The notes under the pieces are model-generated. The model was not told the origin of the DNA and did no database searches. It saw only the letters and a list, made by a program, of their open reading frames with translations. 64,000 nt of DNA from Candidatus Bathyarchaeia archaeon (GTDB lineage: Archaea; Thermoproteota; Bathyarchaeia; Bathyarchaeales; Bathycorpusculaceae). Each line of letters begins with the position of its first letter. The stretch's first letter is position 1. The stretch covers positions 108,498-172,497 of the forward strand of contig JBEKKK010000004.1 in NCBI GenBank assembly GCA_050010755.1. Reading direction: 5' to 3'. Shown here piece by piece: positions 6,291 through 64,000 of this stretch. Position numbers and translations under genes: made by a program.

Positions 6291-6303
6291 CGGGTTTTCT
6301 CCT

Positions 6304-10284: not shown

Positions 10285-10285
10285 T

Positions 10286-10693: not shown

Positions 10694-10956
10694 CCTTCGA
10701 CCACAGCTTAACCATCTATACTGAAGCTTGAAAACCCCTTTCAAGTTAATTCTGACTATTCAATCCGACTAGTTGATGCGCTGAATCAAAGATTCTCCTA
10801 CGCATTCCAACAAATTAAACTTGCCGTCAGATAATGCGAGAAACAGTCATTGAAGTTGATAATTTCGAAAAACAGGCCTTCCGGATTCTGCCAGGTCATT
10901 CTAGACACCTGGCCACTCGTAACCTCAACTATTTGTCCATTGGCAAACCATGAAGA

Positions 10957-18332: not shown

Positions 18333-18366
18333 GACCCTTCCCTCCGCCCGCTATTCTCGTTCCAGT

Positions 18367-19098: not shown

Positions 19099-19107
19099 CC
19101 CCTATGT

Positions 19108-19781: not shown

Positions 19782-19854
19782 TAATTACCTCCAGAGACAA
19801 AAGGTCGCGAGGAAGAATCTTATACATTGTTAACATGGCAAAAACATGCTTGTA

Positions 19855-20653: not shown

Positions 20654-23344
20654 ATGAACGAGAAGAGAGTTTTGTCGATATCTTTGTTCTTCGTGCTGGT
20701 CGCAGGTTTGTTCCTCGCTGCCAGTCTTTTTGGTTCGGGGCAGGCCAAAGCGTCCCCGCTGGTAGAAATAACATTCAATCAAACAGGCGTGAAATCAGAT
20801 TTTACAGGCATCATTCTGACAGTTGATGGCAACAACTACAATTGGTCACACCTTCCTGTCTCATTCTGGTGGTGCCCTGGCTCAACCCACTATTTTGCCT
20901 ATCAATCGCCCTTGGTGGTCAGGCCGAATGCCAAACGATATCTTTGGACCTGTACAAATGGGCTGTCAACGCATCAGAACGGTTCGATAACGGTTTGTAC
21001 CTCAGGAAACGTGACAGGCAACTACAAAACTCAATACTACCTCACAGTCACTTCTGCTCACGATTCCCCGACTCCGACGAGCGGCTGGTTTGACTGTGGG
21101 TCCAAGATTAAAGCTCTCGTCACATCTCCGGTGTCCGGCGGCTCAGGCACTCAGTACGTCTGCACGGGTTGGACAGGCACGGGAAGCGTCCCTGGTTCAG
21201 GTTCGACGACCACCGTCACATTCACGATTGTCGCGCCATCAAGCATCACTTGGAACTGGAAGACCCAGTACCAAGTAAACTTCAGCCAAACAGGCGTCGG
21301 CATAGACTTCACAGGAACGGTTTTCACCGTCGATGGCACCAACTACACAAGAAGTGATTCGCCAGTGTTCTGGTGGGACAGCGGCTCAACCCACACTTTC
21401 ATGTTCCAGTCACCATTGGTTGTTCCTCCTGGTGTCGAGCAGGACGTTTGGACAGGCACAATTGGCTTGTCTTCGATGCAGGGTGGGTCCATAATTGTAA
21501 CATCTAGCGGAAGTATCGTGGGAAACTATGAGACTCAGGACTACTTGACCCTGGATTCGAATCCATCGGGCGTTGGCAATCAGACGGGCGGAGGATGGTA
21601 TGGTACAGGCAGTTCAGCTCTGATATCGACTGACCAGCAAGTAATCATCATATCCGGCGAGTCACAGTACAAATTTACCGGCTGGACGACCAACAACATG
21701 GCCGAGATAACTGACCCGACGTCAGCGTCAACAACGGTTTTGGTGGACGAACCGAAAACGGTCACCGCAAATTATGCAATACAGTATGCAGTCACCTTCG
21801 GCCAAACAGGCGTGGGCGCAGACTTCACGGGAACGGTTTTCACCGTTGATGGCGCCAACCACATATTCAGTGACTCGCCAACATTCTGGTGGGACAACGG
21901 CTCATCGCACACCTTCGCATTCGACTCGCCACTCGTGGTCGCTGCCAATTCTGAACAGTACCTCTGGACAAACACTAGCGGCTTATCGACGCTTCAAAAT
22001 GGCTCGTTAACGGTTGCCAGCTCAGGAAACGTGACGGGCAACTACAAGACCCAATATTATCTCACGGTAGCCTCGCTATATGATTCTCCAAGTCCGACGA
22101 GCGGCTGGTTTGACGCTGGATCGAACATCAACGCCGACGTCACGTCCCCGGTATCCGGCGGCCCGGGCACCCAATACGTCTGCACGGGTTGGACAGGCAC
22201 GGGAAGCGTGCCAGGTTCCGGTTCGACGACCACCGTCACATTCACGATTGTCGCGCCGTCGAACATCACTTGGAACTGGAAGATCCAATACCAAGTAAAT
22301 TTCAGCCAGACAGGCGTAGGCACAGACTTCACTGGGAATGTGGTTAATGTTGACGGCGTGAACTACACTTTGAGCAGTCTTCCGGTTTCTTTCTGGTGGG
22401 ATCAAGGTTCCAGTCACAGTTTCGTGTTTGGCTCGCCGTTGGAGGTGAATGCCAGCGAACAGTATGTTTGGAATTCGACATCTGGTTTGTCGACGCTCCA
22501 AAGCGGTAGTCTGACCGTGACGGCTTCTGGAAACGTTGATGGAAACTATATGGTTCAGTATCAAGTTACCTTTGACCAGGTGGGGGTAGGTTCTGATTTT
22601 GTGGGCAGCGTGGTGTTGATCGACGGCGTCAATTATTCGAGGACGCAGTTGCCAGCGCCATTTTGGTACGACGGCGGTTCAACCCACAGTTTTGCATTTC
22701 AGACACCGCTTGTCGGCGGCACTGCGACGTACGATTGGAATTCGACAACGGGCTTGTCAACGTTGCAGTCGGCGTCGATTAATGTGGCTGGCCCTGGAAA
22801 CGTGACAGGGTTCTACGCAACCAGTCTGCAAGGTGTTGTCGTGACAAACACGACTGCGCCGAGTTGGACCTATCAGGATATACTCGTGATTCCGCATGAT
22901 TGCGTTAACATCAGCGTTTCGGTGCAGAACACGGGAGCCTCCGCGGAGGAGGTTTGGGTCACACTCTTTTATGATATAGCGGCCAACAAGACTGTAGGCG
23001 CGTACCCTGTGCTGCTGGAGAGTGGCGAAAACTATACGCTTATCTTCGTTTGGAACACTGCATGGGTACCGTGCGGCAACTATACGCTGACGGCAGTGGT
23101 TGCGACGCCCACGAGCTCGAACACTTTTACAGTCGGCAACATTGTCGTCAGAATTGTGGGAGACGTGAACAGCGATGGTAGAGTCGACGTGAAAGACATC
23201 GCGCTCGTGGCCCGCGCCTTCGGCTCCAAACCTGGCAGCATAAACTGGAACCCGGCAGCGGATGTTAACGGCGACGGCGTGGTCAACATGAAAGACATAG
23301 CCCTAATAGCTAGGTACTTCGGCAGGCAGACGAAGGCGTACTAG
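20654..23344 (+). CDS. Secreted repeat protein (Ig-like beta repeats, CARDB-like domain) with C-terminal dockerin
   Basis: Signal peptide; repeated 'FxQTGVGxDFTG...FWWD' and 'SPTSGWFD...CTGWTGTGS' units; GDVNSDGRVDVKD...ADVNGDGVVNMKD dockerin. Confidence 0.85.
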   Translation: MNEKRVLSISLFFVLVAGLFLAASLFGSGQAKASPLVEITFNQTGVKSDFTGIILTVDGNNYNWSHLPVSFWWCPGSTHYFAYQSPLVVRPNAKRYLWTCTNGLSTHQNGSITVCTSGNVTGNYKTQYYLTVTSAHDSPTPTSGWFDCGSKIKALVTSPVSGGSGTQYVCTGWTGTGSVPGSGSTTTVTFTIVAPSSITWNWKTQYQVNFSQTGVGIDFTGTVFTVDGTNYTRSDSPVFWWDSGSTHTFMFQSPLVVPPGVEQDVWTGTIGLSSMQGGSIIVTSSGSIVGNYETQDYLTLDSNPSGVGNQTGGGWYGTGSSALISTDQQVIIISGESQYKFTGWTTNNMAEITDPTSASTTVLVDEPKTVTANYAIQYAVTFGQTGVGADFTGTVFTVDGANHIFSDSPTFWWDNGSSHTFAFDSPLVVAANSEQYLWTNTSGLSTLQNGSLTVASSGNVTGNYKTQYYLTVASLYDSPSPTSGWFDAGSNINADVTSPVSGGPGTQYVCTGWTGTGSVPGSGSTTTVTFTIVAPSNITWNWKIQYQVNFSQTGVGTDFTGNVVNVDGVNYTLSSLPVSFWWDQGSSHSFVFGSPLEVNASEQYVWNSTSGLSTLQSGSLTVTASGNVDGNYMVQYQVTFDQVGVGSDFVGSVVLIDGVNYSRTQLPAPFWYDGGSTHSFAFQTPLVGGTATYDWNSTTGLSTLQSASINVAGPGNVTGFYATSLQGVVVTNTTAPSWTYQDILVIPHDCVNISVSVQNTGASAEEVWVTLFYDIAANKTVGAYPVLLESGENYTLIFVWNTAWVPCGNYTLTAVVATPTSSNTFTVGNIVVRIVGDVNSDGRVDVKDIALVARAFGSKPGSINWNPAADVNGDGVVNMKDIALIARYFGRQTKAY
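21001..22320 (+). repeat. Intragenic duplication with 1020-nt offset
   Basis: About 21001-21300 closely matches about 22021-22320 at nucleotide level. Confidence 0.85.
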
Positions 23345-43285: not shown

Positions 43286-44767
43286 ATGGATAGAAGAAAA
43301 TACGTTAGTTTGGCTTTGCTTGCTTCTCTGTTGCTCTTCGCTCTCGCAATACCGTTTGGCAATGCAGTTATAAACGACGCAAACTCACAAGGATTATTCA
43401 AGTATCACGCAACCCCCGAAGTTGTCGACTTCAACAGGTATGGGGGAACAGGCTTCCTTTACAATACTGTTGTTGAACTTCGCAATGCTTATGATTTGAA
43501 CCCGTTATACGCTGCTGGATTCGATGGAACAGGCCAGACAGTGGTCATCGTCGATGCATTTGGAAGCCCCACAATCTATCAAGACTTGCTATCGTTCATA
43601 GTAGACTACCAGAATACCCCAACTTACTTCAGCGCAAACCTGCCATGGACAACAATGGCTCAAGTGCAGAGTCATGTGAAGATATACTATCCTCAAGGAC
43701 AGCCAGTGTTCGACCCTACTAGCTCAGATGAGCTTGGTTGGAGCCAAGAGACTACGCTTGACGTTTGCATGGTCCACGCGATTGCGCCAGGTGCAAACAT
43801 CGCTTTGGTCATCGCTCCAAGCGACTATGATCTACCGCTTACCCAAGCCGTTCAATATGCGCTTGTGCACCATTTGGGCTCCGTGATTTCCCAGAGTTGG
43901 GGCGACCCAGAATGGGACATAGCCGCGGGTGGCAAGGTCGCAATTAAAGAAATGATGCAGGCTCACGCCACCTATATCCTAGCAGCACTCATGGGCGTAA
44001 CCGTGTTCGCATCATCAGGAGATGATGGCGCATCAAACTTGGCCCAGTATTATCTTGCGCAGCCTTACAACAGCCCGCTGTATCCAAGCTCAGATCCCTT
44101 CGTCGTCGCAGTCGGAGGAACGAACCTCTTCATGACCCGTGCGGATGGCTACCAAGAGGGAACCGGAAACTGGACCAACAGGAACACTGGCTTGGGAAGA
44201 ACAGCACCTGGTGTCACATACAACTACGAGATCGCAGGAAACGATTATGAAGGAATGGCCGCCGACGGATACCCAGCTCCATATGACGCTGTTACCACTG
44301 GCGGAGCTATGAGTCAGTTCTTCTCATTGCCGTTCTGGCAATATGGAATAACTATGACAAATGCTGACGGAACATCATTCAGACCCACAATGCGTTGCGC
44401 GTCGGACGTTTCATTCGACAGCGGAGTCTACGGTGGAATAGGTCCAATACCATGGAGCGTTTTAGGAACTGGCGCAGCTTACATCTTTGGAGGCACTAGC
44501 TGCGGTTCACCTTTCTGGGCCGCTTTGACAGCCATCGCAAACCAAAAAGTAGGCCATAACGTAGGATTCATCAGCCCAATATTATACCTAGACAAGACAA
44601 CTCTCTACAGCAAGGGTGCTTTCCATGACATAACAATGGGCGACAACACATACCCAACGGGCTCCACGATGCTAGGCTATGAAGCAACAAAAGGCTGGGA
44701 CGCACCAACAGGCATTGGTAGTCCTGACGCAACAAACCTGATTCTGCAACTAAAAGGATTCTGCTAA
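43286..44767 (+). CDS. Secreted S53 (sedolisin/kumamolisin-like) peptidase
   Basis: Signal peptide; ETTLD (Glu/Asp), SSGDDG oxyanion, GGTSCGSP nucleophile, GWDAPTGIGSP Ca-binding motif. Confidence 0.92.
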   Translation: MDRRKYVSLALLASLLLFALAIPFGNAVINDANSQGLFKYHATPEVVDFNRYGGTGFLYNTVVELRNAYDLNPLYAAGFDGTGQTVVIVDAFGSPTIYQDLLSFIVDYQNTPTYFSANLPWTTMAQVQSHVKIYYPQGQPVFDPTSSDELGWSQETTLDVCMVHAIAPGANIALVIAPSDYDLPLTQAVQYALVHHLGSVISQSWGDPEWDIAAGGKVAIKEMMQAHATYILAALMGVTVFASSGDDGASNLAQYYLAQPYNSPLYPSSDPFVVAVGGTNLFMTRADGYQEGTGNWTNRNTGLGRTAPGVTYNYEIAGNDYEGMAADGYPAPYDAVTTGGAMSQFFSLPFWQYGITMTNADGTSFRPTMRCASDVSFDSGVYGGIGPIPWSVLGTGAAYIFGGTSCGSPFWAALTAIANQKVGHNVGFISPILYLDKTTLYSKGAFHDITMGDNTYPTGSTMLGYEATKGWDAPTGIGSPDATNLILQLKGFC

Positions 44768-50282: not shown

Positions 50283-51515
50283 TTATCGTGACTCGAATCT
50301 TTTGGGCCGCGTGGCTTTCTTCTTGTAACATACCATTGCAATGAAAATTGCTGACATATAGAATGGCAAAATGATGAATGATGGAAACTCTGGTGTTACG
50401 ACGATTTGCTGTGCTGGAAATTGATAAGTGAGGTACAGAATGCTTTGGGTGCTGTTGGATTCGGGGAGAAGGGTATATCGTGCCTCAGTTCCGTTTACAT
50501 AAATCGCTACGGTTCCGTTGACCAATGCTGTCGGGATGCTGATTCTGCAGAACCCAGTTGTGCCGTTTTCACCTGACGCATTGAACGCTAGAGCGTTGCC
50601 GTTGAACTGGAAATCGGATATCGTGGAGTTGCAGACTGTTTCAACCGAATACTGTGGCGTGACGTTGAAGCTGTTGAACATGCCCAAGAGGGGATAGTGG
50701 TCAAGGTTTCCCACTTCGTAGGGTCCGACGTTATAGGGAATATTTCCAAAACCGTCATTGTTAGTATTGTTACCGTTGTAGTTGCTCCAGTAGTTTCCGC
50801 CGGACGAGTTGCCGTTGTCCCACGTGTTGGGCCATTCTCCGCTTTCGCCCCAGTTGAACACTTGGATAGAATTGTTGATGAAGTTGTTGTTAAAGAACGT
50901 GTTATATTCGGAAGCAAATAGGTTGACGCCTTTATTGCTACTGTTCACTATCGTGTTTGCTGTAAACATGGTGTTGTAAGCCTCTTCCACATATATGCCA
51001 ACGTAGCTGTTTTCGATGTAGTTGTGGGTTATAACGCTGAGAGTCGGTACACCGACTGAGCATTCTAGGTAAATGCCGTAAGTGTTGTTTATTATCTGAT
51101 TATCAGATATGTAACAGTTCTCGCCACTATTGAGATATATACCAGAATCGTAAAACTCGGTTCCACTGTTTCTGACTGTGAACCCGCTCAGGGTCACATT
51201 ATCAGATATTGCCACAACATTTCCTGTGCCGTTGCCGTCTATGATTGTTGACCCGCTGCCAGCTCCGATAAGCGATATGCTCTTGTTCACGACAACGTTT
51301 TCAAAGAATGTGCCCGGATATACAAAGATTGTTTGCCCATCTAACGTTTCGTTAGCGTTTATTGCTTCTTGAATTGTCGAGTAGTTCAAGCCTGTGCTGA
51401 GGTTGTGAACTGGTAAACTGCTTGATGCCTTCACTTGAGAACTGGTAAACCTCGCAAAAGACAAACAAGACATCGACAAAAGCAGGCAAAAAACAAAAAC
51501 AAATCTTTTCTCCAC
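50283..51515 (-). CDS. Secreted NosD/CASH parallel beta-helix protein with PEF-CTERM-like sorting signal
   Basis: TIQEAIN, GIYL repeats, GGNYWSNY and DHYPL motifs; C-terminal PEF + TM + KKK. Confidence 0.87.
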   Translation of the reverse strand: MEKRFVFVFCLLLSMSCLSFARFTSSQVKASSSLPVHNLSTGLNYSTIQEAINANETLDGQTIFVYPGTFFENVVVNKSISLIGAGSGSTIIDGNGTGNVVAISDNVTLSGFTVRNSGTEFYDSGIYLNSGENCYISDNQIINNTYGIYLECSVGVPTLSVITHNYIENSYVGIYVEEAYNTMFTANTIVNSSNKGVNLFASEYNTFFNNNFINNSIQVFNWGESGEWPNTWDNGNSSGGNYWSNYNGNNTNNDGFGNIPYNVGPYEVGNLDHYPLLGMFNSFNVTPQYSVETVCNSTISDFQFNGNALAFNASGENGTTGFCRISIPTALVNGTVAIYVNGTEARYTLLPESNSTQSILYLTYQFPAQQIVVTPEFPSFIILPFYMSAIFIAMVCYKKKATRPKRFESR

Positions 51516-51521
51516 GTTGGA

Positions 51522-53711
51522 TCAACTCCCGTATGAGACTGATCCCGTTCCGAGTAATGGTTCTGGCCAGTTATCAAGATTGGGCCAGTATATTGCGAGT
51601 GTCCAGTCTGGATCAAAAGTAAAAGCTGAAGTTGTCTGCGGCGCCGTTGGGGTTGGCGACTTTATTATTCTGAACTCTATCTGTGCAAGCGTGCCGGTTC
51701 CGTTGAAACACCAGTTCTCGCTTCCTTGAATGAAGGTGCAGCCCCACTCGATAACTCCGCAGGTGCTGTTGTTAGGTATGGCGCCAACCACTACTGGCGG
51801 CTGAACCAGCGTGTCTCCAGAGGAGGTGGCGCCGTGGAAAACGTTGTCCGAGGGCAACCATGCATTAACAAACTGGAGAGTGGTGTTGTCGTATGTCATG
51901 CCGATTCCCCACGCATAAAGGTCTGTCACGTTGGATACGGTGACGTTTACGAAGAATGTGGAGCCTAACGACGTCTCGTTTGAATAGAATATGAAATCTG
52001 GAGTTCCAATGTTGCGAACCGTGGCGGAAGCGTTCCAGTTTGACGCGTTGCTCTCAGGTCCTGGATTCAAGAAGCTAAAAACTGGTGAGACGGCTGCAAT
52101 TACGGTTGCGTTGTTAGAGATTGTCTGTGCGCCGGTGTTGTCGGTTACTTCCAAATATACGGTGTAGGAACCTACAGACGGGGGCGTGAACGTCCAATTC
52201 GCGTCCGTAGCACCGGAAACTGGAGAACCATCAAGATACCACTGGAACGTGTACGGCAAACTGCCGCCCCTCGCGTTTGAACTGAAAACTTCAGACTGAC
52301 CTTGAATTATTCCGCAATAAGAGGGTGAAATGGATGCAGAAAATGCTGGCAGACCAATAGCGTAAACAGTTCCGTCGCTGGAGGCTGCGAAGACCACGCC
52401 GTTGTCAAAGAATGGAACGGAAAAACCGCCCACGTTGAACTTCCATATTAACGCGCCGTTCGTGGCATTCAAGGCGTAAACGTTATCGTCATTCGAGCCC
52501 ACGTAAACGACTCCGTCAACAACGCAAGGTGAATACAAATAACTACCGCCCGATATCCAACTGCCCGTCTGGTAGCTCCAAATGTACGCTCCTGTTGTTG
52601 CGTTCAAGGCATAGATGCTGCCATCATAAGAATCCAAATAAAGAACTCCGCCGACAACGGCAGGATCATCGCGCACGAAACCCTTAGTTGAGTAGCTCCA
52701 CAGCTGCTGGCCAGTTGAAGCGTTCAAAGCGTAAAGGCCATCGCCGTTTGCGCTTGCCACATAAGCGATGTCTCCGAAAACGGACACGTTAGAACCCCAC
52801 CCGAACAAGTAAGTCCACAAGACTCCGCCTGTGGAAGCGTTCAGGGAATAAACAAGATCTGTTGTCATTAAAAATACATTGCCGTCGCTGATAGCAACAG
52901 AACCCACAGGGTCATCGGCCGTGTAGACCCATTCGAGTGTGCCAGTCGTACTGTTTAGCGCCCAAACGTAGGAATCCCCGGGAACATAATCGATGCCATT
53001 AACAACCGTGGAAGACCCAAAGCGAGCGCCACTGCTCGAGTAGCTCCACAAAACCGTCCCCGTCGTGCTGTTCAGAGCCCAATCCACGCTATCCGAACCG
53101 ACGTAAACGATGCCACCGGCAACAACAGGAGTCGAAAAGTAAGCATCACCTGTTGTGAAGTTCCATACAGTCATACCCGTCGTGTCGTTCAGCGCGTATA
53201 TCGAGCCTTCCAAACAGATGTAGGCTATGCCCTCAGCAAGAGCAGGAGGATTAATGCCCGGTCCGTCGGCCCCGTTTGCTTCAAACCATATGAAGGCCCC
53301 TGTGGAAACATTATAAGCGAAAATCTCAGTAGGAGCGCCAGCAGTCCACCCATTACCTCCAGCTCCTACGCAGACTTCGCCGTCGCCTACGGCTACTATG
53401 CTCTCGCCACCGTTCCTGACAGTCCACAGACTTTGGTTGGACAACTGCACGGTCTGACTTGCATTAGAAGATGTTGGCGTTGAATTTAGCGTGCGTGTGG
53501 CGCTCGACGAAGCCATGGTGCGAATCATGGACCACCAGTATGCGGCAGACTGTATGGTGGAAGGTCCCGAGTTCACGGTAGAACCTGTGCCCTGCCGATT
53601 CGTCTGGTTCTGCGGGACAATGTTGTGAACGGTCACGGCAAAAAGAGAGACTGCCAAAACGACAACCGCAAATTTCAACAGTTCTTTCTTTGCAGAAGTC
53701 AAAGATTTCAT
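51522..53711 (-). CDS. N-terminally anchored PQQ-like beta-propeller + PKD/Ig + C-terminal cohesin-like domain
   Basis: Repeated 'YALNAxTG...W' blades; PKD-like 'YTFQWYLDG...YTVYLEVTD'; 'FFVNVTVSNVTDLYAWGIGMTYDNTTL' cohesin-like segment. Confidence 0.82.
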   Translation of the reverse strand: MKSLTSAKKELLKFAVVVLAVSLFAVTVHNIVPQNQTNRQGTGSTVNSGPSTIQSAAYWWSMIRTMASSSATRTLNSTPTSSNASQTVQLSNQSLWTVRNGGESIVAVGDGEVCVGAGGNGWTAGAPTEIFAYNVSTGAFIWFEANGADGPGINPPALAEGIAYICLEGSIYALNDTTGMTVWNFTTGDAYFSTPVVAGGIVYVGSDSVDWALNSTTGTVLWSYSSSGARFGSSTVVNGIDYVPGDSYVWALNSTTGTLEWVYTADDPVGSVAISDGNVFLMTTDLVYSLNASTGGVLWTYLFGWGSNVSVFGDIAYVASANGDGLYALNASTGQQLWSYSTKGFVRDDPAVVGGVLYLDSYDGSIYALNATTGAYIWSYQTGSWISGGSYLYSPCVVDGVVYVGSNDDNVYALNATNGALIWKFNVGGFSVPFFDNGVVFAASSDGTVYAIGLPAFSASISPSYCGIIQGQSEVFSSNARGGSLPYTFQWYLDGSPVSGATDANWTFTPPSVGSYTVYLEVTDNTGAQTISNNATVIAAVSPVFSFLNPGPESNASNWNASATVRNIGTPDFIFYSNETSLGSTFFVNVTVSNVTDLYAWGIGMTYDNTTLQFVNAWLPSDNVFHGATSSGDTLVQPPVVVGAIPNNSTCGVIEWGCTFIQGSENWCFNGTGTLAQIEFRIIKSPTPTAPQTTSAFTFDPDWTLAIYWPNLDNWPEPLLGTGSVSYGS

Positions 53712-58746: not shown

Positions 58747-59787
58747 TCATATGTGTTGTCCGAAGTTTCTGGCCACCAAAGCGATGTCTCTCATGTTGAC
58801 TGTCCCGTCGTTGTTGAGGTCCGAATTGGGATTCCAATTACTTGAGCCAGGCGTAGAGCCGAAAGCTCTGGCAATCAGGGCTACGTCTCGCATGTTAACC
58901 TGCCCATCAGGCCAACCGCTTGAACCCGTGACATCGCCAATTAATGACACTATCACCCAGCCGGCAGTGCAGTTGTTGTTTGCGGTGTTGGTTTCGCCGG
59001 GAACAGGCCAAGCGTAAGCGCTAATCGTATAATTGCCATACGCAAAGCCCGTGGTGTTCCATGTGAACGTTACGTTCGCAGAGTTTCCGCTTGAGAGAGT
59101 GACGTTTGCGGATGAGATGTAGCTCGAGTTGGCGTAGACCGTGACATTGAACGTTTCAGCGTTGCCACCGAAATTTGCGGCTGTTGCAGTGATGTTCCCG
59201 CCGTATCCTCTGCTTATGACTGTCTTGGCTAATGCGAATCTACTCACTGCTACGTCATGACTCGGAGCGGTTACGTTGACTGTCCCGCTGAAATCTGAGT
59301 GAGAAATCGGCTGTCTCGGGATTTCATTGTCCCCGAGAATTGACTCAGCGAGCGGTAATGTTAAGTTGCTAATACCTGCGCCCACCGCCATGAAATTGAC
59401 TGTGAGTATCACTCCATTGCCATTCACTGAATAATCACCTTCGATTGTGGAGTATGCCGACAAACAGCCACACGTGCTGTTGTAATTGTCGTTAACGGTC
59501 TCGCTGAAATACGTGCCCAAAGCGCCGGTCGATTTCAAAAACGAACCTTCAACCGCATTTGTACAGCTTAGGATAGCATTCACATAGTAAAGGTTCAACT
59601 GCCAAGACGTAAAATTGACAACATTCGTCACGTTCACGTTCACGCTGAAAGAGGACCCCGAAATTGTGGTGGAAACTGGCGGATCAACCGCTATTGCAGT
59701 CGAAGGTTGTGCGGATGTTCTGTAAACCGACAATGTTGACATGGATAAAAATAGTATGATGCACACTAGAACAGGTATCCTCTTCAA
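58747..59787 (-). CDS. Secreted cohesin-like + CARDB + dockerin protein
   Basis: Signal peptide; 'FSVNVNVTNV...WQLNLYY...EGSFL' cohesin-like; 'HDVAV...GETNTANN' CARDB; GDV...DGQVNMRD / DLNNDGTVNMRD dockerin. Confidence 0.85.
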   Translation of the reverse strand: MKRIPVLVCIILFLSMSTLSVYRTSAQPSTAIAVDPPVSTTISGSSFSVNVNVTNVVNFTSWQLNLYYVNAILSCTNAVEGSFLKSTGALGTYFSETVNDNYNSTCGCLSAYSTIEGDYSVNGNGVILTVNFMAVGAGISNLTLPLAESILGDNEIPRQPISHSDFSGTVNVTAPSHDVAVSRFALAKTVISRGYGGNITATAANFGGNAETFNVTVYANSSYISSANVTLSSGNSANVTFTWNTTGFAYGNYTISAYAWPVPGETNTANNNCTAGWVIVSLIGDVTGSSGWPDGQVNMRDVALIARAFGSTPGSSNWNPNSDLNNDGTVNMRDIALVARNFGQHI

Positions 59788-60010
59788 CGCTCCTTTCTCC
59801 CCTTTAATTTGCGCTAAAAATATGCTGTAACGATGATATTTAAGACTTCAGGAACAAACTTCTACTTCTAAAAAATACGCGCGGGTAATAGCCATGGCCC
59901 AGACTTAAAGCAAGCATCTTTCTTTTGCCCCTTAGGTTACAAAGTCTGTGTTTGTGTCGACAAAAAAAGAGGTTTTAGCAGCTGCCTTGCTGCGCAACTG
60001 CATGTCATGA

Positions 60011-61219
60011 TCACGGAAGAACGTCGGGTTTGTAATAGTAGTAGTTTGCAGCGACTATAACTAGGTCATAGATGTCGATGATATTGTTGCTGTCCACTTT
60101 GACGTCGTATTTGGCTGCTGGACCGCTGGCAGTCGATTGGTCAAAGTAGGCTGCTACGGTCGAAAGGTCGAGGATGTCGACATGGCCGTCGCAGGACACA
60201 TCACCTTGGATCAAGTTGACGGGCACCGTCACAGCTGTTGGCAGCGTGACTGAACCGATAGATGTCGTTCCTCCACCCAACGTTAGGCTTCCTGTCGTTG
60301 TCTCAAGCGAGATGGTGGCGCTGAACTGGTTCGGTGAGGTTGACGTTTTCCATATGTGCGTGCTACGTTGATCGAATATTATCTGGAAAGTCAACGTGAA
60401 CAACAGTCCACTGCTGCCATGGTATGAGCCGCCTGAGCTGAGCGAAAGATGAACGACGCCTGATATACTGGTGTCCACTGTCGGCGTTGCAAGAACATAT
60501 GGGTCTGTAGGCTGGACTTGCACAAACGTTAGGAATTCCGAGCTGTAGTCCACTCTGAGATCGTAGCCGGTAAGTGGTGAGTTGGTGTTGATGTTGGTTG
60601 CGTAAACCTGAACCTCAACATATTTCCCAAACTCATAGGGCTTATTCGTGTTAGGGTTGACTTTAGTGAATGTGATGCCCGGCGTTATGGCGCTCATGGT
60701 GTATGTTCCATCATTGAATGTTGGAGTGATAGAATTCGCGGCTGAATCACTGAGCTTGACGTTGAGTGGGTCGAACTGGATTGGTGTTGAATGAGGTAAG
60801 TTGTCTGCCTCTACTATGTTGAATGTCAGTGTGAAAAGCGTGGCTGATCCACTGAACCCCGGTGTGCCCTCCTTAACTGCTGCGAATCTGACGTAGCCAT
60901 CACCAGTCTGATAGGGTGGCGTCAAAGGCTCAAGGTAATGGCCAGCGAAAACTGTGTTAAGGGAACTGTCGTCGAGACTTGATAAAGTTATCAGCGAATT
61001 GTCCCATGTTATTTTGATGTCAAAGCCAAACAGATCGCTAACATCACTAATATTCACGGGCACTGTAAAACTAGTGCCCACGTCGCTCGGAATCTTTGCA
61101 ACCGATGAAATAGATAGCGTGGCTGTGCTTGCAGATGCTCTCTGAATTGTAAGGCCAAATGTGAAGATGCTTGCGAAAAGCAGTAGCGTCAAGATACTTG
61201 CTAGATATTTTGTTTTCAT
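60011..61219 (-). CDS. Secreted protein with two cohesin-like domains and a dockerin
   Basis: 'FTVPVNISDVSDLFGFDIKITWDNSL' and 'VEVQVY...GYDLRVDYSSEFL'; GDVSCDGHVDILD...IIDIYD dockerin. Confidence 0.83.
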   Translation of the reverse strand: MKTKYLASILTLLLFASIFTFGLTIQRASASTATLSISSVAKIPSDVGTSFTVPVNISDVSDLFGFDIKITWDNSLITLSSLDDSSLNTVFAGHYLEPLTPPYQTGDGYVRFAAVKEGTPGFSGSATLFTLTFNIVEADNLPHSTPIQFDPLNVKLSDSAANSITPTFNDGTYTMSAITPGITFTKVNPNTNKPYEFGKYVEVQVYATNINTNSPLTGYDLRVDYSSEFLTFVQVQPTDPYVLATPTVDTSISGVVHLSLSSGGSYHGSSGLLFTLTFQIIFDQRSTHIWKTSTSPNQFSATISLETTTGSLTLGGGTTSIGSVTLPTAVTVPVNLIQGDVSCDGHVDILDLSTVAAYFDQSTASGPAAKYDVKVDSNNIIDIYDLVIVAANYYYYKPDVLP

Positions 61220-61340
61220 TTTCCTCCTTTCTCCTTCTAATTTGCAGTTTTAGCAATAGATAGTGTTTGTATTTAAAGGTTCAGTAACATGGTTCTATCA
61301 GGCCTTGTTATAAGGAAAAGAAGGATGGATGTTAGTAGGT

Positions 61341-64000
61341 TTAGGTATATGTGTAGCCGAAGTTTGAGGCAACCATTACCAAGTCGTATAGGTCGATAAT
61401 ATTGTCGCCGTGCAAGTCATAGGCAGATGCAGTGGGCCATGTTGAATCGCCCTGCTTGACGTCGTAGAATCCCGCTACCGTTGCTAGGTCAAGAATGTTC
61501 ACAATGCCGTCGTTGTTTAAGTCGCCACGGATGGGTAGGAACTTGAAAGTAACATTGTTCACGCTAATCTGACTGAGTCCGCTCTCTTGGTATACAAGTT
61601 GTTGAACTTCTGAGCTGAGGCTGGCGTTGTGGAACCATATTTGGCCATCTAACTCGTTGACTTGACCTTGTTTCCATATCATTGTCGCAATGTCTTGGAA
61701 CGTGATGTTTAACAGCCAGCGGTTTCCACTCACGGAAGCCCCAACTACATGTCCTTCAAGTATGCCGTTTACCGGGTCGACACTAGTGATTGTTCCTGAA
61801 CCCAATTCTCCCCACGAAACGCTTACGTAGCTCACCAATGTGGGATTGTAGAGTATTGCAAAGTTGAAATCATCAACAGCTATTGCGTTGGTCACGTTCA
61901 CCTGCAATGTGAACTGCTCGCCATATTTTCTACAGATCATCGCGTCTGGAGACATCTGAAGCAGGGGTTGATACTGTGGGCCTCCGCTAACATTGTATAT
62001 TACGCCATGACCGAAACCACTATCTCCGGACCCTCCTAGGCTTTCAACGCCTACATACCAGCAGTCAAGTGTGTTATCACTGTTGATAATGACGTGGCCG
62101 AGCTCATCGACTGTGAAACTCAGTCCTCCTGCTTCACCTCCCTCCCACGTCCCTGCTGCACCAATTGGAAGTATCGGATTATACGGAGAGAAGGCCAAGT
62201 TTGTCCAGTCCCCAACGCGGCAATATGCGACACCGTCTTCTCTGTAGTTGCCCGTCAAAGTCAAGTACACAGAACCGCCGTATATGTACGTGTAGAGCGG
62301 AGTGAGCAACGAGCTATCCCAGCCATGTCCTTCAGGGACAAGAACGTTTTTCTGTAGATACGTCCAGGTTAACCCATCTGAAGAAGTTAAACAACTCACG
62401 GATGTGGGACCGAGGTACCCTATCCAGTATGTTGAGTTGACGCGCGCACATGAAAACTCCGGGTTGGCGGGGCCTGAGATGACTGGATTTCCTGAATACC
62501 GAGTCAAGTTACCTACCATATAGCCACCGCTCCCGTCAGGTGCAATATCAAGAAATACCAGACCTACTCCAGACCCGGCTTGGTAGTAAACCCAATATGT
62601 TCCATTGATTTTTATGTGGGTGGTTGTCCAGCACAACTCTCCGCCTTCCCATGAATTTGGCACAACAGACAACACTGGATTTCCGGCATATTTGGTCCAG
62701 TTGAGGCCATTGCTACTCCACGCAAATCCGGCTTGTCTTTGCCCTATTGGCGCCCCGTTGTAAAGCATGAAGTAGGTTTCAAAGTCGCGGTCATACCATA
62801 TACATTCATCGTACACCCATCCTTTTTCCCAAGGTTGGGAAGCAACAAAATCTGTGCGTACACGATCAGCCACGCCCCCCGTGAAGTTGATTACTACTTC
62901 GACGGACCATTCATACTTCCCCGTCAAGCCAGAGACCTGTGCTGAAGCTGTAACGTTGAATACTCCAAGATTGGTGAATGTGCAGTTCCATGAAGCAGTT
63001 TGCAGGCCATAATCAACTTGCTGCTGCAAACCGTTCATGTACCAAGTTGTGTCCGCTGACATGACCCAAGATACCTGAAACGCTTGTTGACTTCCTCGAT
63101 CAAGCGTTAACATTGTCGCAGGTGATGCGCTAGTAACGTTCAATGATGATATCGTCTCGAAACTGAATGTCTGGTTGTTCCAGATTCCAAATGATGGGTC
63201 TACCACAGACACCTGCCAAGTGTAAGTGGTGTTAAGTTGGAGACCACTGACGCTTACAGAGTATGTGCCGCTGTAGACGCCCGTACCACTGCCTGAACCG
63301 GTGTCCGGAGTCGTAGTGACATAATAGTTCATCGAATCGTTCAGATAGTCTGTCAAATCAAAGCTGAGCTCAGACAGCGAGGGACCGACTGTTGCGCCGA
63401 TAGCTGGCGAGGGGTTAGAGATGCTCGGAAATTTGAGTGAGAACGTTTCTTCAGACCCAACGCTGTAGAACGATGAAGGCGATTGTTGGTTACTATATTC
63501 TGTTGAGATCCACGACGCACTCCGGACTATGTTTGAAATCCGCACCTCATCAACCGTACCGTTCCAGAAATGGCTATAACCGCTGTAGTTTCTTGCACCT
63601 ATTGTCCTATAGTTAGGGTCATTGGAAAAATAGCTGCCAACGCTACTCAATGTCTGCGCTGCACCGTTAAGATAAAAGCCGATACTGCTTGCGGTTGTTA
63701 CAGCGTCGCACCAGTAAGCCCAAGTTCCGGCAGTCAGATACGCACTGGGAGTCCCCAACCCGTATCTATACGCATCGTTTCCAATGACTATTTTGTTCTC
63801 AGTGTTGTATATGCCCATGCTGACTCCGCTTCCGCCCGTTTCTGTTCCCTCAAAAGCAATAATCGCACCATCTTGTACGAGTGTGGCGGGGTTTGCCCAA
63901 CACTCGATAGTGTAGGGTGGTGACAACCCGAATGGAATAGTAGCATAGGAGCTGGAACCGTCGAAGCCGGCAGCACCATCAATCTTCCCAGTCACGTTGT
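61341..64000 (-). CDS. Large secreted protein (5'-truncated): LamG/ConA-like + Ig + five-bladed glycoside-hydrolase-like propeller + cohesin-like + dockerin
   Basis: 'GTVDEVRIS...WISTEY' LamG; 'YFMLYNG...GFAWSSNGLNWTKYAGNPVL' propeller repeats; 'FTLQVNVTNA...ILYNPTL'; GDLNNDGIVNILD dockerin. Confidence 0.82.
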   Translation of the reverse strand, partial: NVTGKIDGAAGFDGSSSYATIPFGLSPPYTIECWANPATLVQDGAIIAFEGTETGGSGVSMGIYNTENKIVIGNDAYRYGLGTPSAYLTAGTWAYWCDAVTTASSIGFYLNGAAQTLSSVGSYFSNDPNYRTIGARNYSGYSHFWNGTVDEVRISNIVRSASWISTEYSNQQSPSSFYSVGSEETFSLKFPSISNPSPAIGATVGPSLSELSFDLTDYLNDSMNYYVTTTPDTGSGSGTGVYSGTYSVSVSGLQLNTTYTWQVSVVDPSFGIWNNQTFSFETISSLNVTSASPATMLTLDRGSQQAFQVSWVMSADTTWYMNGLQQQVDYGLQTASWNCTFTNLGVFNVTASAQVSGLTGKYEWSVEVVINFTGGVADRVRTDFVASQPWEKGWVYDECIWYDRDFETYFMLYNGAPIGQRQAGFAWSSNGLNWTKYAGNPVLSVVPNSWEGGELCWTTTHIKINGTYWVYYQAGSGVGLVFLDIAPDGSGGYMVGNLTRYSGNPVISGPANPEFSCARVNSTYWIGYLGPTSVSCLTSSDGLTWTYLQKNVLVPEGHGWDSSLLTPLYTYIYGGSVYLTLTGNYREDGVAYCRVGDWTNLAFSPYNPILPIGAAGTWEGGEAGGLSFTVDELGHVIINSDNTLDCWYVGVESLGGSGDSGFGHGVIYNVSGGPQYQPLLQMSPDAMICRKYGEQFTLQVNVTNAIAVDDFNFAILYNPTLVSYVSVSWGELGSGTITSVDPVNGILEGHVVGASVSGNRWLLNITFQDIATMIWKQGQVNELDGQIWFHNASLSSEVQQLVYQESGLSQISVNNVTFKFLPIRGDLNNDGIVNILDLATVAGFYDVKQGDSTWPTASAYDLHGDNIIDLYDLVMVASNFGYTYT

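What the first reader, a model, noticed from the sequence alone, without database searches (positions are those of the whole stretch)
58747..64000. Archaeal cohesin-dockerin assembly: tandem secreted proteins each carrying both cohesin-like and dockerin modules, one with a glycoside-hydrolase-like propeller
Seen: three consecutive minus-strand genes end in a duplicated EF-hand dockerin and also contain one or two cohesin-like beta-sandwiches. The largest adds a LamG domain and a GH43/32/130-like five-bladed propeller. The window also encodes a dockerin-only repeat protein (20654-23344) and a cohesin-only, N-terminally anchored propeller protein (51522-53711). Established: cohesin-dockerin pairs build bacterial cellulosomes, and an isolated pair is known in Archaeoglobus fulgidus. 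Inference: subunits with both modules could chain head-to-tail, with the two-cohesin protein as a branch point, forming a self-polymerising surface meshwork for polymer degradation or adhesion. This differs from the scaffoldin-plus-enzyme hierarchy.
Basis: partly seen in the sequence, partly recalled or inferred. Interest (0 to 1): 0.85.

Follow-up and report, generated by a model that had tools for sequence, protein, structure and literature searches.

The report
Cohesin–dockerin surface protein cluster, Bathyarchaeia
Three neighbouring genes of an uncultured archaeon encode secreted proteins that each carry both the plug (dockerin) and the socket (cohesin) that bacteria use to build cellulosomes; the arrangement is real and conserved but has precedents, and who binds whom is still untested.

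Summary
Three minus-strand genes (A 58747-59787, B 60011-61219, C 61341 to beyond the window end) encode signal-peptide proteins with Pfam cohesin and C-terminal dockerin modules. B models confidently and matches solved cohesins at TM about 0.8. C carries LamG and a five-bladed propeller of the GH130/117/43/32 clan.

The organism is probably Bathyarchaeia. Relatives have the same or larger clusters, and protein A's family has at least 1631 members.

New here: the dockerins come in two types, and each follows its own kind of beta-sandwich with no linker. One type follows a CARDB domain (A and the 896-aa protein). The other follows a divergent cohesin (B, C). No cross-pairing was seen. This resembles bacterial type II X-module-dockerin dyads, which are also the nearest solved relatives.

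- No binding was shown.
- B's second cohesin may not be a free socket.
- A role in polymer degradation rests on one unassigned propeller.
- Proteins with both modules, and multimerisation through them, are already published (ANME archaea, R. bromii Amy4, A. fulgidus).

Verdict: new member of a known kind, moderate interest.

The parts
59710..59787 (-). Protein A, predicted Sec signal peptide (residues 1-26)
   Evidence: Read from the translation: basic N-terminus, hydrophobic core, small residues before the predicted cleavage site. No predictor was run.
59266..59709 (-). Protein A, N-terminal 'free' cohesin (residues 27-174), class Coh_A
   Evidence: Pfam Cohesin 25.1 bits, E 2.3e-5, when scanned alone. 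The family profile hits type II cohesins 3l8q (3.6e-6) and 2b59_A. The Atlas structure row matches a cohesin cluster at TM 0.83 by target.
58945..59265 (-). Protein A, CARDB Ig-like module (residues 175-281), joined to the dockerin without a linker
   Evidence: Pfam CARDB E 1.6e-6. The family profile hits CARDB-like solved domains 2l0d, 3idu and 2kl6. Dyad rule.
58750..58944 (-). Protein A, C-terminal dockerin, type alpha (residues 282-346)
   Evidence: Pfam Dockerin_1 1.3e-9. phmmer to 2y3n_B 7.4e-9. Family profile to 2y3n_B 1.1e-13 and to X-Doc type II chains 2b59_B, 3kcp_A, 4wi0_B and 4u3s_B. The second Ca loop is canonical; the first has a 5-residue insertion.
61130..61219 (-). Protein B, predicted signal peptide (residues 1-30)
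   Evidence: Translation. The AF2 model has helix 2-20, then pLDDT below 50 at residues 22-28.
60686..61129 (-). Protein B, first cohesin (residues 31-178), class Coh_B1
   Evidence: Pfam Cohesin, best stretch 40-173, whole-protein E 1.5e-18. AF2 pLDDT above 90. Foldseek matches to single cohesins at TM 0.77-0.81 by target, including A. fulgidus 2xdh.
60215..60685 (-). Protein B, second, dockerin-adjacent cohesin (residues 179-335), class Coh_B2
   Evidence: Pfam Cohesin 31 bits, E 3.4e-7, when scanned alone. hhalign to the Coh_B1 family 97.3%, E 2.7e-11. The last strand (330-335) runs straight into the dockerin loop.
60014..60214 (-). Protein B, C-terminal dockerin, type beta (residues 336-402)
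   Evidence: Pfam Dockerin_1 19 bits, below the gathering score. The family profile hits 2y3n_B (4.6e-4), 5k39_B and 2b59_B. Loop 1 acidic positions are conserved (D340 52/52, G345 52/52, D351 51/52). Loop 2 has K at position 3 in 38/52, and the window's copy has a 2-residue insertion at columns that are gaps in 42 and 41 of the 52 sequences.
63504..63962 (-). Protein C, LamG/ConA-like lectin domain (window residues 13-165)
   Evidence: Pfam Laminin_G_3 3.6e-13.
62892..63425 (-). Protein C, two Ig/fn3-like beta-sandwiches (window residues 192-369)
   Evidence: AF2 model of P0056 residues 378-555, pLDDT mostly 88-95, all-beta. Only weak fn3 hints in Pfam (E 0.043).
61959..62891 (-). Protein C, five-bladed beta-propeller of the GH130/117/43/32 clan (window residues 370-680)
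   Evidence: 2059 relatives at E<=1e-3. 40 of 40 sampled relatives have partial GH130, GH32N and/or GH43 Pfam matches. The profile hits GH130 7fip at 1.4e-30. Foldseek 4onz TM 0.60, 3r67 0.53, 5a7v 0.49 by target. Its own Pfam hit is not significant.
61542..61958 (-). Protein C, dockerin-adjacent cohesin-like module (window residues 681-819), class Coh_B2
   Evidence: Pfam Cohesin 23.6 bits, just under the gathering score of 24.1. My Coh_B2 HMM scores 51 bits. The AF2 model is weak here (pLDDT 52-78; P0056 residues 956-1007 below 50).
61344..61535 (-). Protein C, C-terminal dockerin, type beta (window residues 822-885)
   Evidence: Pfam Dockerin_1 23.4 bits, above the gathering score. 2y3n_B 5.4e-4. 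Two 12-residue loops, with H at position 3 of loop 2. AF2 pLDDT about 90.
23159..23320 (+). Dockerin type alpha of the 896-aa repeat protein (gene 20654-23344), preceded by a CARDB-like module
   Evidence: Pfam Dockerin_1 6.7e-13. CARDB E 0.0033. My CARDB_A and Doc_alpha HMMs hit adjacent stretches.
51621..51980 (-). C-terminal cohesin (class Coh_A) of the 729-aa protein (gene 51522-53711), which has an N-terminal hydrophobic segment: candidate cell-bound socket
   Evidence: Pfam Cohesin 24.4 bits, E 3.7e-5. blastp to the A cohesin 2e-7 and to B cohesin 1 8.5e-6. N-terminal hydrophobic stretch seen in the translation.

Best explanation
A, B and C are secreted subunits of a non-cellulosomal cohesin-dockerin assembly system that is widespread in Bathyarchaeia.

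Each protein ends in a two-module 'plug': a beta-sandwich joined without a linker to a C-terminal Ca-loop dockerin. There are two plug classes. CARDB + dockerin-alpha occurs in A and in the 896-aa repeat protein. Divergent cohesin + dockerin-beta occurs in B and C. In sequence and layout both resemble the X-module-dockerin dyads of bacterial type II systems.

The N-terminal cohesins of A and B, and the C-terminal cohesin of the 729-aa protein with an N-terminal membrane segment, are the free 'sockets'.

Proposed working: plugs dock, Ca2+-dependently, into free sockets of other subunits. Cargo is then strung in short chains that end on a cell-bound socket. The cargo includes C's DUF2341-LamG-Ig-Ig-GH130-like propeller, the 896-aa repeat protein, and in relatives Kelch propellers, GH113, GH43, NosD-like beta-helices, and PKD or InlB-B repeats. 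The likely result is a display layer of glycan-binding or glycan-processing modules on or around the cell.

Shown: module identity, fold, predicted secretion signals, two dockerin classes with fixed neighbours, and conservation of the cluster.

Inferred: that binding occurs, which pairs bind, chain length, anchoring, and the glycan-related role.
For: Modules: Pfam. B modelled at pLDDT 92.5, pTM 0.75. Foldseek matches to cohesins at TM about 0.8 by target, and to CipA CohI9-X-DocII (3kcp, 4fl4) and a type II cohesin dyad (3l8q) as top multi-domain hits.

Nearest solved relatives by profile are type II modules: X-DocII chains 2b59_B, 3kcp_A, 4wi0_B and 4u3s_B, and CohII chains 2b59_A, 3l8q and 2bm3. 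The 4wi0_B and 4u3s_B alignments extend back into the CARDB region.

Two classes: blastp groups the A, B1 and 729-aa cohesins together (E 2e-7 to 9e-6) and sets B2 and C apart. The dockerins split into A + 896-aa versus B + C.

Dyad rule:
- Window: 2 of 2 alpha dockerins follow CARDB, and 2 of 2 beta dockerins follow Coh_B2.
- ORFs of 17 archaeal loci: alpha follows CARDB in 13 of 19, Coh_B1 in 1, none of my models in 5. Beta follows Coh_B2 in 14 of 21, none in 7. There were no cross-pairs.
- Fetched homologues (a biased set): 120 of 125 and 72 of 73.
- 239 of 242 dockerin hits lie within 15 residues of the C-terminus.

Cassette on varied cargo: C's last 30% is 62-73% identical to the C-termini of Kelch, GH130, LamG and DUF2341 proteins.

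Conserved cluster: L001 has six consecutive same-strand genes that all carry a dockerin, five of them with a Pfam cohesin hit (all six by my own HMMs). They include a B orthologue (58%), a DUF2341-LamG protein upstream and an A-like gene downstream. Homologues of A, B and C share the same longest-contig lengths in 8 cases; this is a hint only.

Secretion: N-terminal signal-like sequences and no C-terminal anchor. N-X-S/T sequons number 13 in A and 19 in C.

Native gene content: GC of 0.47-0.50 across 58-64 kb is like the rest of the window.
Against: - No interaction was demonstrated.
- B's dockerin is below the Pfam threshold, and its second loop carries Lys at position 3 (38 of 52 family members) plus a 2-residue insertion in the window's copy, so one Ca site may be defective.
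- A's first loop has a 5-residue insertion.
- C's cohesin-like module is borderline in Pfam and poorly modelled.
- I could not inspect model coordinates. 'Rigid dyad' rests on the missing linker and on pTM 0.75 only.
- The class HMMs were built from the A and B families, and the loci were retrieved with B-family patterns, so the dyad counts are not an independent sample. In 12 of 40 locus dockerins none of my models lay upstream.
- Whether the 729-aa protein's hydrophobic segment is an anchor or a cleaved signal is not established.
- The propeller reaches no GH family threshold.
Confidence: 0.55

Rival explanations
1. Self-polymerising meshwork. Each subunit's dockerin binds the cohesin of the next copy or of a neighbour, giving open head-to-tail polymers, with B as a branch point because both its cohesins accept dockerins. 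One variant has A and B alternating: cohesin A takes dockerin-beta, and cohesin B1 takes dockerin-alpha.
For: - A, B and C all carry both modules.
- Having both modules is common in the lineage: 25 of 60 module-bearing ORFs in 17 loci.
- A-type and B-type genes recur together (contig-length coincidences).
- Precedent: the Amy4 dockerin binds Amy4's own cohesin (PMC4611034).
- Within proteins, Coh_A goes with Doc-alpha (7) and Coh_B1 with Doc-beta (13), against 2 + 2 mixed.
Against: - B's second cohesin is part of a conserved fused dyad and may not be free.
- In bacterial scaffoldins the resident cohesins and dockerin are usually non-cognate (recalled knowledge), so co-residence does not predict self-binding.
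- Co-occurrence of types can reflect common descent alone.
- No evidence of polymers.
Confidence: 0.2
2. No intermolecular assembly. The dockerin-adjacent sandwich and the dockerin form a closed, Ca-stabilised C-terminal unit, possibly with the dockerin bound in cis. The 'free' cohesins act as generic Ig/CBM-like adhesion or glycan-binding modules of cell-surface glycoproteins.
For: - Linker-less junction and a high pTM for the multi-domain protein B.
- Degenerate second Ca loop in beta dockerins.
- Cohesin scores for A and C are marginal.
- The cargo is lectin-like (LamG, Kelch, PKD).
- Cohesin-fold modules occur on unrelated bacterial proteins such as secretins and LysM proteins.
Against: - Dockerins are C-terminal in 239 of 242 hits, and free cohesins are abundant in the same loci. 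This is the pattern expected of a plug-and-socket system.
- Archaeal pairs are reported to bind (as cited in PMC9012536).
- The nearest solved relatives are binding-competent type II pairs.
Confidence: 0.15
3. A true cellulosome-like machine for plant polysaccharide breakdown: B is a mini-scaffoldin and C a dockerin-borne glycoside hydrolase.
For: - C's propeller belongs to the GH130/117/43/32 clan.
- Related loci carry GH113-CARDB with a dockerin motif, and GH43 and GH130 proteins with the cassette.
Against: - No cellulose-binding module, no multi-cohesin scaffoldin and no cellulase in the window.
- The propeller reaches no GH family threshold.
- Most cargo is non-catalytic.
- The 'enzyme' C itself carries a cohesin-like module.
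Confidence: 0.05

Closest known systems
Archaeoglobus fulgidus non-cellulosomal cohesin-dockerin pair (cohesin structure 2xdh)
   Same: Archaeal and non-cellulosomal. 2xdh superposes on the B model at TM 0.80 by target, rmsd 2.5. It is cited as a case where a cohesin-dockerin pair presumably gives multimerisation (PMC4611034) and as verified to bind (PMC9012536).
   Different: A. fulgidus has a single isolated pair. Here it is a lineage-wide expansion (A family at least 1631 proteins) in conserved multi-gene clusters, with two dockerin classes and fixed upstream modules. That one A. fulgidus protein holds both modules is recalled, not checked; the original papers are not held.
ANME archaeal dockerin/cohesin proteins (Chadwick et al. 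2022, PMC9012536; Timmers et al. 2017, PMC5244752)
   Same: Archaeal proteins with one dockerin and several cohesins (up to five), called scaffoldin-like, with many dockerin-bearing non-CAZyme cargos. The proposed role is surface attachment or adhesion (passages). B (two cohesins + dockerin) and the 585-aa L001 protein (three + dockerin) have the same layout.
   Different: The phylum differs (Thermoproteota-type rather than Halobacterota) and so does the cargo (LamG/DUF2341/propellers rather than ABC substrate-binding proteins and S-layer domains). The dyad regularity is not described there. I did not open their supplementary domain tables (S4 Data).
Ruminococcus bromii amylosome, Amy4 (PMC4611034)
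   Same: A cargo protein that carries both a cohesin and a dockerin. Its dockerin binds its own cohesin and those of partners, and a separate cell-bound cohesin protein (Sca2) anchors the set.
   Different: Amy4 is bacterial, binding is experimentally shown, the cargo are GH13 amylases, and only one protein has both modules. Here nearly all subunits have both, and nothing is shown experimentally.
Type II X-module-dockerin / cohesin pairs of bacterial cellulosomes (C. thermocellum CipA XDocII-SdbA: 2b59, 3kcp, 4fl4; A. cellulolyticus: 4u3s, 4wi0)
   Same: These are the best profile matches for both the dockerins and the free cohesins and the top multi-domain Foldseek hits. An Ig-like module directly precedes the dockerin.
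   Different: Here the upstream module is a CARDB or a cohesin-family sandwich, not the bacterial X module. The proteins carry one to three cohesins, not nine. There is no SLH or sortase anchor. Packing of sandwich against dockerin was not verified.
GH130 beta-mannoside phosphorylases/hydrolases (7fip, 9fj8, 5a7v, 3r67, 4onz)
   Same: Five-bladed propeller. The profile of C's relatives hits 7fip at 1.4e-30. Fold matches at TM 0.49-0.60 by target.
   Different: C itself gets no PF04041 hit. The blades are unusually regular repeats. It is extracellular and fused to lectin, Ig, cohesin and dockerin modules. Catalytic residues were not assessed.

Membership tests
Cohesin (Pfam PF00963) | HMM score at or above the gathering score (24.1 bits) | tested here: met
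   B cohesin 1 (whole protein 67.8 bits). B cohesin 2, 31 bits; A cohesin, 25.1 bits when scanned alone. 729-aa protein, 24.4 bits. Exception: the C module at 23.6 bits is just below.
Cohesin (Pfam PF00963) | Flattened jelly-roll beta-sandwich superposable on solved cohesins | tested here: met
   B model against 6kgc_A, 1g1k, 2xdh, 3ul4, 4uyq and 5nrk at TM 0.77-0.81 by target, rmsd 2.4-3.4. The output does not say which of B's two sandwiches was aligned. A's Atlas model matches a cohesin cluster at TM 0.83 by target. C's module is poorly modelled.
Cohesin (Pfam PF00963) | Binds a dockerin, Ca2+-dependently | not testable with these tools
   Needs recombinant modules.
Dockerin type I-like (Pfam PF00404) | HMM score at or above the gathering score (22.9 bits) | tested here: met
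   A 38.5, C 23.4; 896-aa protein 49.1. Exception: B at 19 bits is below. 5 of 55 B-family members carry a precomputed PF00404, and the B family profile reaches solved dockerins at E 4.6e-4.
Dockerin type I-like (Pfam PF00404) | Two tandem F-hand segments, each a 12-residue Ca loop with acidic or amide residues at positions 1, 3, 5, 9 and 12, followed by a helix (definition recalled) | tested here: inconclusive
   In A, B and C one loop is canonical. The other deviates: a 5-residue insertion in A's loop 1; K at position 3 plus a 2-residue insertion in B's loop 2; H at position 3 in C's loop 2. Three helices are present in the models.
X-module-dockerin dyad (type II/III) | Ig-like module directly N-terminal to the dockerin and packed against it | tested here: inconclusive
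   Adjacency without a linker holds in 4 of 4 window dockerins and 27 of 40 locus dockerins. The 4wi0_B and 4u3s_B alignments run into the CARDB region. Packing could not be seen because no coordinates were available; pTM is 0.75 for B.
Cellulosome (system) | Scaffoldin with many cohesins plus a cellulose-binding module | tested here: not met
   At most two cohesins per protein in the window and no CBM hit. At most three in L001.
Cellulosome (system) | Dockerin-borne plant-cell-wall hydrolases | tested here: inconclusive
   Only C's unassigned propeller in the window. GH113, GH43 and GH130 cargos occur in relatives.
Cellulosome (system) | Cell anchoring by an SLH or sortase-linked cohesin protein | tested here: not met
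   No SLH or sortase signal in any of the 46 window ORFs scanned with Pfam (3, 43). The possible substitute is the 729-aa cohesin protein with an N-terminal hydrophobic segment.
GH130 (Pfam PF04041) | HMM score at or above the gathering score (26 bits) | tested here: not met
   No PF04041 hit for C's propeller even at E<=10. Only GH43 at E 0.042.
GH130 (Pfam PF04041) | Five-bladed propeller fold | tested here: met
   Foldseek 4onz 0.60, 3r67 0.53, 5a7v 0.49 (TM by target). Five repeated blades in the consensus of relatives.
GH130 (Pfam PF04041) | Catalytic Asp and phosphate- or water-activating residues in place | not tested
   I had no residue-level structural alignment, so no claim is made.

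The most novel reading that the evidence does not exclude
The cohesin-dockerin-beta cassette is a self-complementary building block. The dockerin of one cassette inserts into the fused cohesin, or the B1-type cohesin, of the next. Together with A-type Coh-CARDB-Doc-alpha subunits this forms a scaffoldin-free, Ca-dependent protein polymer: an archaeal extracellular matrix or sheath. The polymer would be decorated with lectin and propeller cargo and tied to the membrane through cohesin proteins such as the 729-aa one. That would be a new principle of archaeal cell-surface construction, in one of the most abundant uncultured archaeal lineages.
Probability: 0.15. Interest if true: 0.75.

Novelty: new member of a known kind. 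Interest (0 to 1): 0.42.

Why it matters
Bathyarchaeia are abundant and mostly uncultured, and almost nothing is known about their cell surface. A large, conserved plug-and-socket system would explain how they hold glycan-binding or glycan-processing modules at the cell. It would also offer a set of possibly orthogonal archaeal cohesin-dockerin pairs for protein-assembly engineering. The fixed pairing of each dockerin class with its own upstream sandwich is a concrete, testable rule for predicting specificity. In kind, however, this is another non-cellulosomal cohesin-dockerin system like those noted in A. fulgidus, ANME archaea and R. bromii.

Tried and rejected
- Complex prediction, A cohesin (27-174) against A CARDB-dockerin (175-346), both as slices of the 81-row alignment A3. 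Verdict 'no answer': score 0.00 in both runs, controls not run. This is neither for nor against binding.
- The listing of cluster members for housekeeping proteins and A, B and C, to get source names for the taxon: the database was switched off, and the query was not repeated.
- Peer et al. 2009 (PMC3035643), the survey of non-cellulosomal cohesins and dockerins, is not held. What it says about proteins with both modules is known to me only from citations and recall.
- Single-sequence PDB search with B found nothing significant (best E 0.13 and 0.35). Only the family profile reached cohesins and dockerins.
- NCBIfam has no family for A, B, P0056 or the 896-aa protein.
- My guess that the NosD-like protein ends in a PEF-CTERM sorting signal got no NCBIfam support at E<=0.01.
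- Pfam on C's propeller alone was not significant.
- Literature searches for cohesin or dockerin in Bathyarchaeota or Bathyarchaeia returned 6, 4 and 20 papers. I read passages from five of them; those mention the terms only in passing or in their reference lists. The other listed papers I judged from title and abstract start only.
- I considered a recent transfer from bacteria and set it aside. GC is uniform, and full-length relatives above 35% identity are all in Bathyarchaeota/Bathyarchaeia records. B-like layouts at 26-28% identity do occur in Poribacteria and Thermoanaerobacterium, and one at 37% in its best segment in Anaerolineales.
- Not checked: the closed collections (metagenome and viral contigs).

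Full report
**What is there**

The region holds three minus-strand ORFs: A (58747-59787, 346 aa), B (60011-61219, 402 aa) and C (61341-63998, 885 aa, running off the window end).

Pfam on the whole proteins gives:
- A: cohesin, CARDB, dockerin.
- B: cohesin (two stretches), dockerin.
- C: LamG, cohesin, dockerin.

Some scores fall below Pfam's gathering thresholds: A cohesin 21.9 against 24.1, B dockerin 19 against 22.9, C cohesin 20. Scanned as isolated domains, A's cohesin (25.1 bits) and B's second cohesin (31 bits) pass, while C's (23.6 bits) just misses. A profile-profile comparison of B's two sandwiches across 52 family members gives 97.3% probability, E 2.7e-11, so the second one is a true cohesin homologue.

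A's dockerin matches cellulosomal dockerins directly (2y3n_B, 7.4e-9), as does C's (5.4e-4). Single-sequence search with B found nothing significant.

The database holds C's full-length form, P0056 (1071 aa, 100% identical). It adds an N-terminal hydrophobic helix and a DUF2341 domain that lie outside the window.

**Structure**

B, modelled with a 52-sequence alignment, gives mean pLDDT 92.5 and pTM 0.75. Foldseek against the PDB puts at the top the CipA CohI9-X-DocII fragment (4fl4, 3kcp) and a type II cohesin dyad (3l8q). Single cohesins superpose at TM 0.77-0.81 by target, including the A. fulgidus cohesin 2xdh (0.80, rmsd 2.5).

P0056 models at pLDDT 74.9. It is good for DUF2341, two Ig-like sandwiches, the propeller and the dockerin. 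It is weak for the LamG linker region and for the cohesin-like module (residues 956-1007 below 50).

**The propeller**

Pfam finds nothing significant in C's propeller (GH43, E 0.042). An exhaustive search finds 2059 relatives at E<=1e-3, 466 of them at <=1e-10. Many are 300-450 aa with four or five matched stretches.

All 40 of 40 small relatives that I sampled carry partial GH130, GH32N and/or GH43 matches. Their consensus shows five regular blades. A profile dominated by these relatives hits GH130 beta-1,2-mannoside phosphorylases best (7fip 1.4e-30, 9fj8 8e-30), then GH117, GH32 and GH43. Foldseek on the model gives 4onz 0.60, 3r67 0.53 and 5a7v 0.49 (TM by target).

Family membership is not met, and catalytic competence is open.

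**Organism and context**

The window encodes:
- CdvA and Vps4.
- Methenyl-H4MPT cyclohydrolase and formylmethanofuran dehydrogenase-like subunits.
- HdrA/MvhD-type proteins.
- NucS and Nre (all).

This gene set fits a TACK-type archaeon with the archaeal Wood-Ljungdahl branch.

The best related loci for B are all Candidatus Bathyarchaeota/Bathyarchaeia MAGs: L001 at 58%, L002-L008 at 35-43%. The Atlas clusters nearest to A are 'Archaea 100%, commonest Candidatus Bathyarchaeota'. An independent lookup of housekeeping proteins could not be made.

GC is even across the window.

**Other module-bearing genes in the window**

- An 896-aa repeat protein (20654-23344) ends in a CARDB-like module plus a very canonical dockerin (6.7e-13).
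- A 729-aa protein (51522-53711) has an N-terminal hydrophobic segment, an S/T-rich stretch, a PQQ-type propeller, PKD and a C-terminal cohesin (24.4 bits).

**How common it is**

- B has 55 relatives of the same length at E<=1e-3; 53 of the 55 carry a precomputed cohesin domain.
- A has at least 1631 relatives, mostly Coh-CARDB-Doc proteins of about 340 aa. One is named by NCBI 'dockerin type I domain-containing protein [Candidatus Bathyarchaeia archaeon]' and one by JGI 'CARDB/Dockerin type I domain/Cohesin domain'.
- C's last 30% (cohesin + dockerin) recurs at 62-73% identity on proteins with Kelch propellers, GH130, LamG/DUF2341 and InlB-B repeats, and at 47% on a GH43 protein (P0078). Many of these have a further cohesin in front, which is the same Coh-Coh-Doc tail as B.
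- L001 has six consecutive same-strand genes that all carry a dockerin. Pfam finds a cohesin in five, and my own HMMs find one in the sixth, A-like gene as well. They are: Coh-PKD-CARDB-Doc; DUF2341-LamG-Coh-Coh-Doc; the B orthologue; Coh x3-Doc; Coh-InlB-B x7-Doc; an A-like gene.
- Other Bathyarchaeia loci add NosD-CARDB-Doc, GH113-CARDB with a dockerin motif, and runs of six or more such genes.
- Homologues of A, B and C or cassette proteins are listed with identical longest-contig lengths in eight cases: 17213, 19412, 18629, 20204, 8754, 5191, 13393 and 3903. This suggests, but does not prove, that they sit together.
- B-like layouts at 26-28% identity also occur in a few bacterial MAGs (Poribacteria, Thermoanaerobacterium), and at 37% in the best segment in Anaerolineales. 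Short Coh-Doc proteins of about 200 aa form bacterial clusters in the Atlas.

**Two plug classes**

Pairwise BLAST groups the cohesins of A, B1 and the 729-aa protein (E 2e-7 to 9e-6). It sets the dockerin-adjacent B2 and C modules apart (0.022 to each other). The dockerins split the same way: A and the 896-aa protein ('alpha') against B and C ('beta').

I built six HMMs from slices of the A and B family alignments. I used them to scan all stop-to-stop ORFs of 100 aa or more in the window and in 17 archaeal loci, plus all fetched proteins, 934 sequences in total.

| Set | Alpha dockerin directly after CARDB | Beta dockerin directly after Coh_B2 | Other |
|---|---|---|---|
| Window | 2 of 2 | 2 of 2 | none |
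| ORFs of 17 archaeal loci | 13 of 19 | 14 of 21 | alpha: 1 after Coh_B1, 5 after none of my models; beta: 7 after none |
| Fetched homologues (biased set) | 120 of 125 | 72 of 73 | alpha: 1 after another Doc_alpha, 4 after none; beta: 1 after none |

No cross-pair occurred in any set. 239 of 242 dockerin hits end within 15 residues of the C-terminus.

Within proteins, beta dockerins go with B1-type free cohesins (13, against 2 with A-type). Alpha dockerins go with A-type (7, against 2 with B1-type).

Caveats: the models come from the A and B families, and the loci were found with B-family patterns.

In all four window proteins the last strand of the sandwich runs into the first Ca loop with no linker.

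**Nearest characterised relatives**

Family profiles against the PDB reach:
- Type II X-module-dockerins: 2b59_B, 3kcp_A, 4wi0_B, 4u3s_B, 5k39_B.
- The B. cellulosolvens Cel48 dockerin 2y3n_B.
- Type II cohesins: 3l8q, 2b59_A, 2bm3, 5m0y_A.
- R. flavefaciens ScaC cohesin 5lxv_A.

The 4wi0_B and 4u3s_B alignments start inside the CARDB region. Together with the missing linker, this is why I read the sandwich-dockerin pairs as X-Doc-like dyads. I could not inspect coordinates, so the packing is inferred.

**Ca loops**

In A, B and C one loop is canonical and the other deviates:
- A's loop 1 has a 5-residue insertion.
- The B family's loop 2 has Lys at position 3 in 38 of 52 members. The window's copy also has a 2-residue insertion at columns that are gaps in 42 and 41 of the 52.
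- C's loop 2 has His at position 3.

Loop 1 of the B family is strongly conserved: D340 and G345 in 52 of 52, D351 in 51 of 52.

**Mechanism**

The most likely picture is a plug-and-socket system. Dyads dock into free cohesins of other subunits and, in the end, of a cell-bound cohesin protein, which displays lectin-like and propeller cargo.

Which class binds which socket is open. Cross-type pairing would give alternating A/B chains. In bacterial scaffoldins the resident modules are usually non-cognate (recalled), which argues for caution.

The single complex prediction allowed returned no verdict and is not used as evidence.

**What is known**

- Chadwick et al. 2022 (passages of section 32) describe ANME proteins with one dockerin and up to five cohesins. 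They state that archaeal pairs have been verified to bind, citing Bayer 1999 and Haimovitz 2008, and cite Peer 2009 for wide distribution.
- Timmers et al. 2017 count 80/149 and 77/112 cohesin/dockerin domains in ANME-1 and ANME-2a columns of their table (passages).
- Ze et al. 2015 (abstract and passages) show that Amy4's dockerin binds its own cohesin. [quoted passage not shown]
- Three searches for cohesin, dockerin or cellulosome together with Bathyarchaeota or Bathyarchaeia returned 6, 4 and 20 papers. I read passages from five of them, which mention the terms only in passing or in their reference lists. The rest I judged from title and abstract start only. Within the held library I found no paper describing this system in this lineage.
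- Peer 2009 and the A. fulgidus papers are not held.

**Verdict**

This is a new lineage-level member of the known kind 'non-cellulosomal cohesin-dockerin systems'. Its useful added regularity is the two fixed sandwich-dockerin dyads. Interest is moderate.

Noticed in passing
window 50283-51515 (-): A 410-aa NosD-like beta-helix protein with a signal peptide. It ends in a Pro-Glu-Phe motif, a hydrophobic stretch and a basic tail, which looks like an archaeosortase-type C-terminal sorting signal. NCBIfam gave no sorting-signal hit at E<=0.01. In a related locus the NosD-like protein carries CARDB-dockerin instead (L003), so the same cargo has two alternative attachment modes.
   Followed up: partly
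window 43286-44767 (+): A 493-aa protein with a signal peptide and Ser-protease-like motifs (sedolisin/subtilisin style, by eye). It has no Pfam hit even at E<=1 and no NCBIfam hit. It may be an unclassified secreted peptidase.
   Followed up: partly
window 16258-19836 (-): Cdv cell-division cluster: Vps4/CdvC (AAA + MIT + Vps4_C), a 178-aa ORF, CdvA, and a 242-aa ORF with a weak Snf7/ESCRT-III hit (E 0.0038).
   Followed up: partly
window 5325-10744 (-) and 29614-35097 (-): Methenyl-H4MPT cyclohydrolase next to formylmethanofuran dehydrogenase-like subunits (GXGXG, amidohydrolase, molybdopterin). Separately, two large HdrA-like flavoproteins, one fused to an MvhD/FlpD domain, plus a polyferredoxin. 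This points to an archaeal Wood-Ljungdahl / electron-bifurcation gene set.
   Followed up: no
L002 9983-10940 (+): The B-like gene next to the C orthologue appears as two overlapping ORFs: Coh_B1 alone at 9983-10522, and Coh_B2 alone at 10479-10940 with no dockerin hit. This could be a frameshift, an assembly error or a decaying copy.
   Followed up: no
window 58747-63998 (-): N-X-S/T sequons are very uneven: 13 in A (3.7 per 100 aa), 19 in C (2.1), but only 1 in B (0.2). If these are N-glycosylation sites, B would be an almost unglycosylated subunit among glycosylated ones.
   Followed up: no
window 59788-60010 and 61220-61340: Both intergenic regions upstream of A and B contain an A/T-rich box that, on the coding strand, resembles an archaeal TATA box. 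This suggests separate promoters rather than one operon. It was not tested.
   Followed up: no
window 20654-23344 (+): The 896-aa dockerin protein consists of about seven internal repeats of roughly 100 aa with no Pfam family (only the CARDB-like module and the dockerin are recognised). Related loci have InlB-B-type (Flg_new_2) repeat proteins in the same clusters.
   Followed up: partly
window 23451-24383 (+): A 310-aa protein with a signal peptide and a C-terminal transmembrane segment, directly downstream of the 896-aa dockerin gene. It has no significant family hit. It may be a membrane partner.
   Followed up: no
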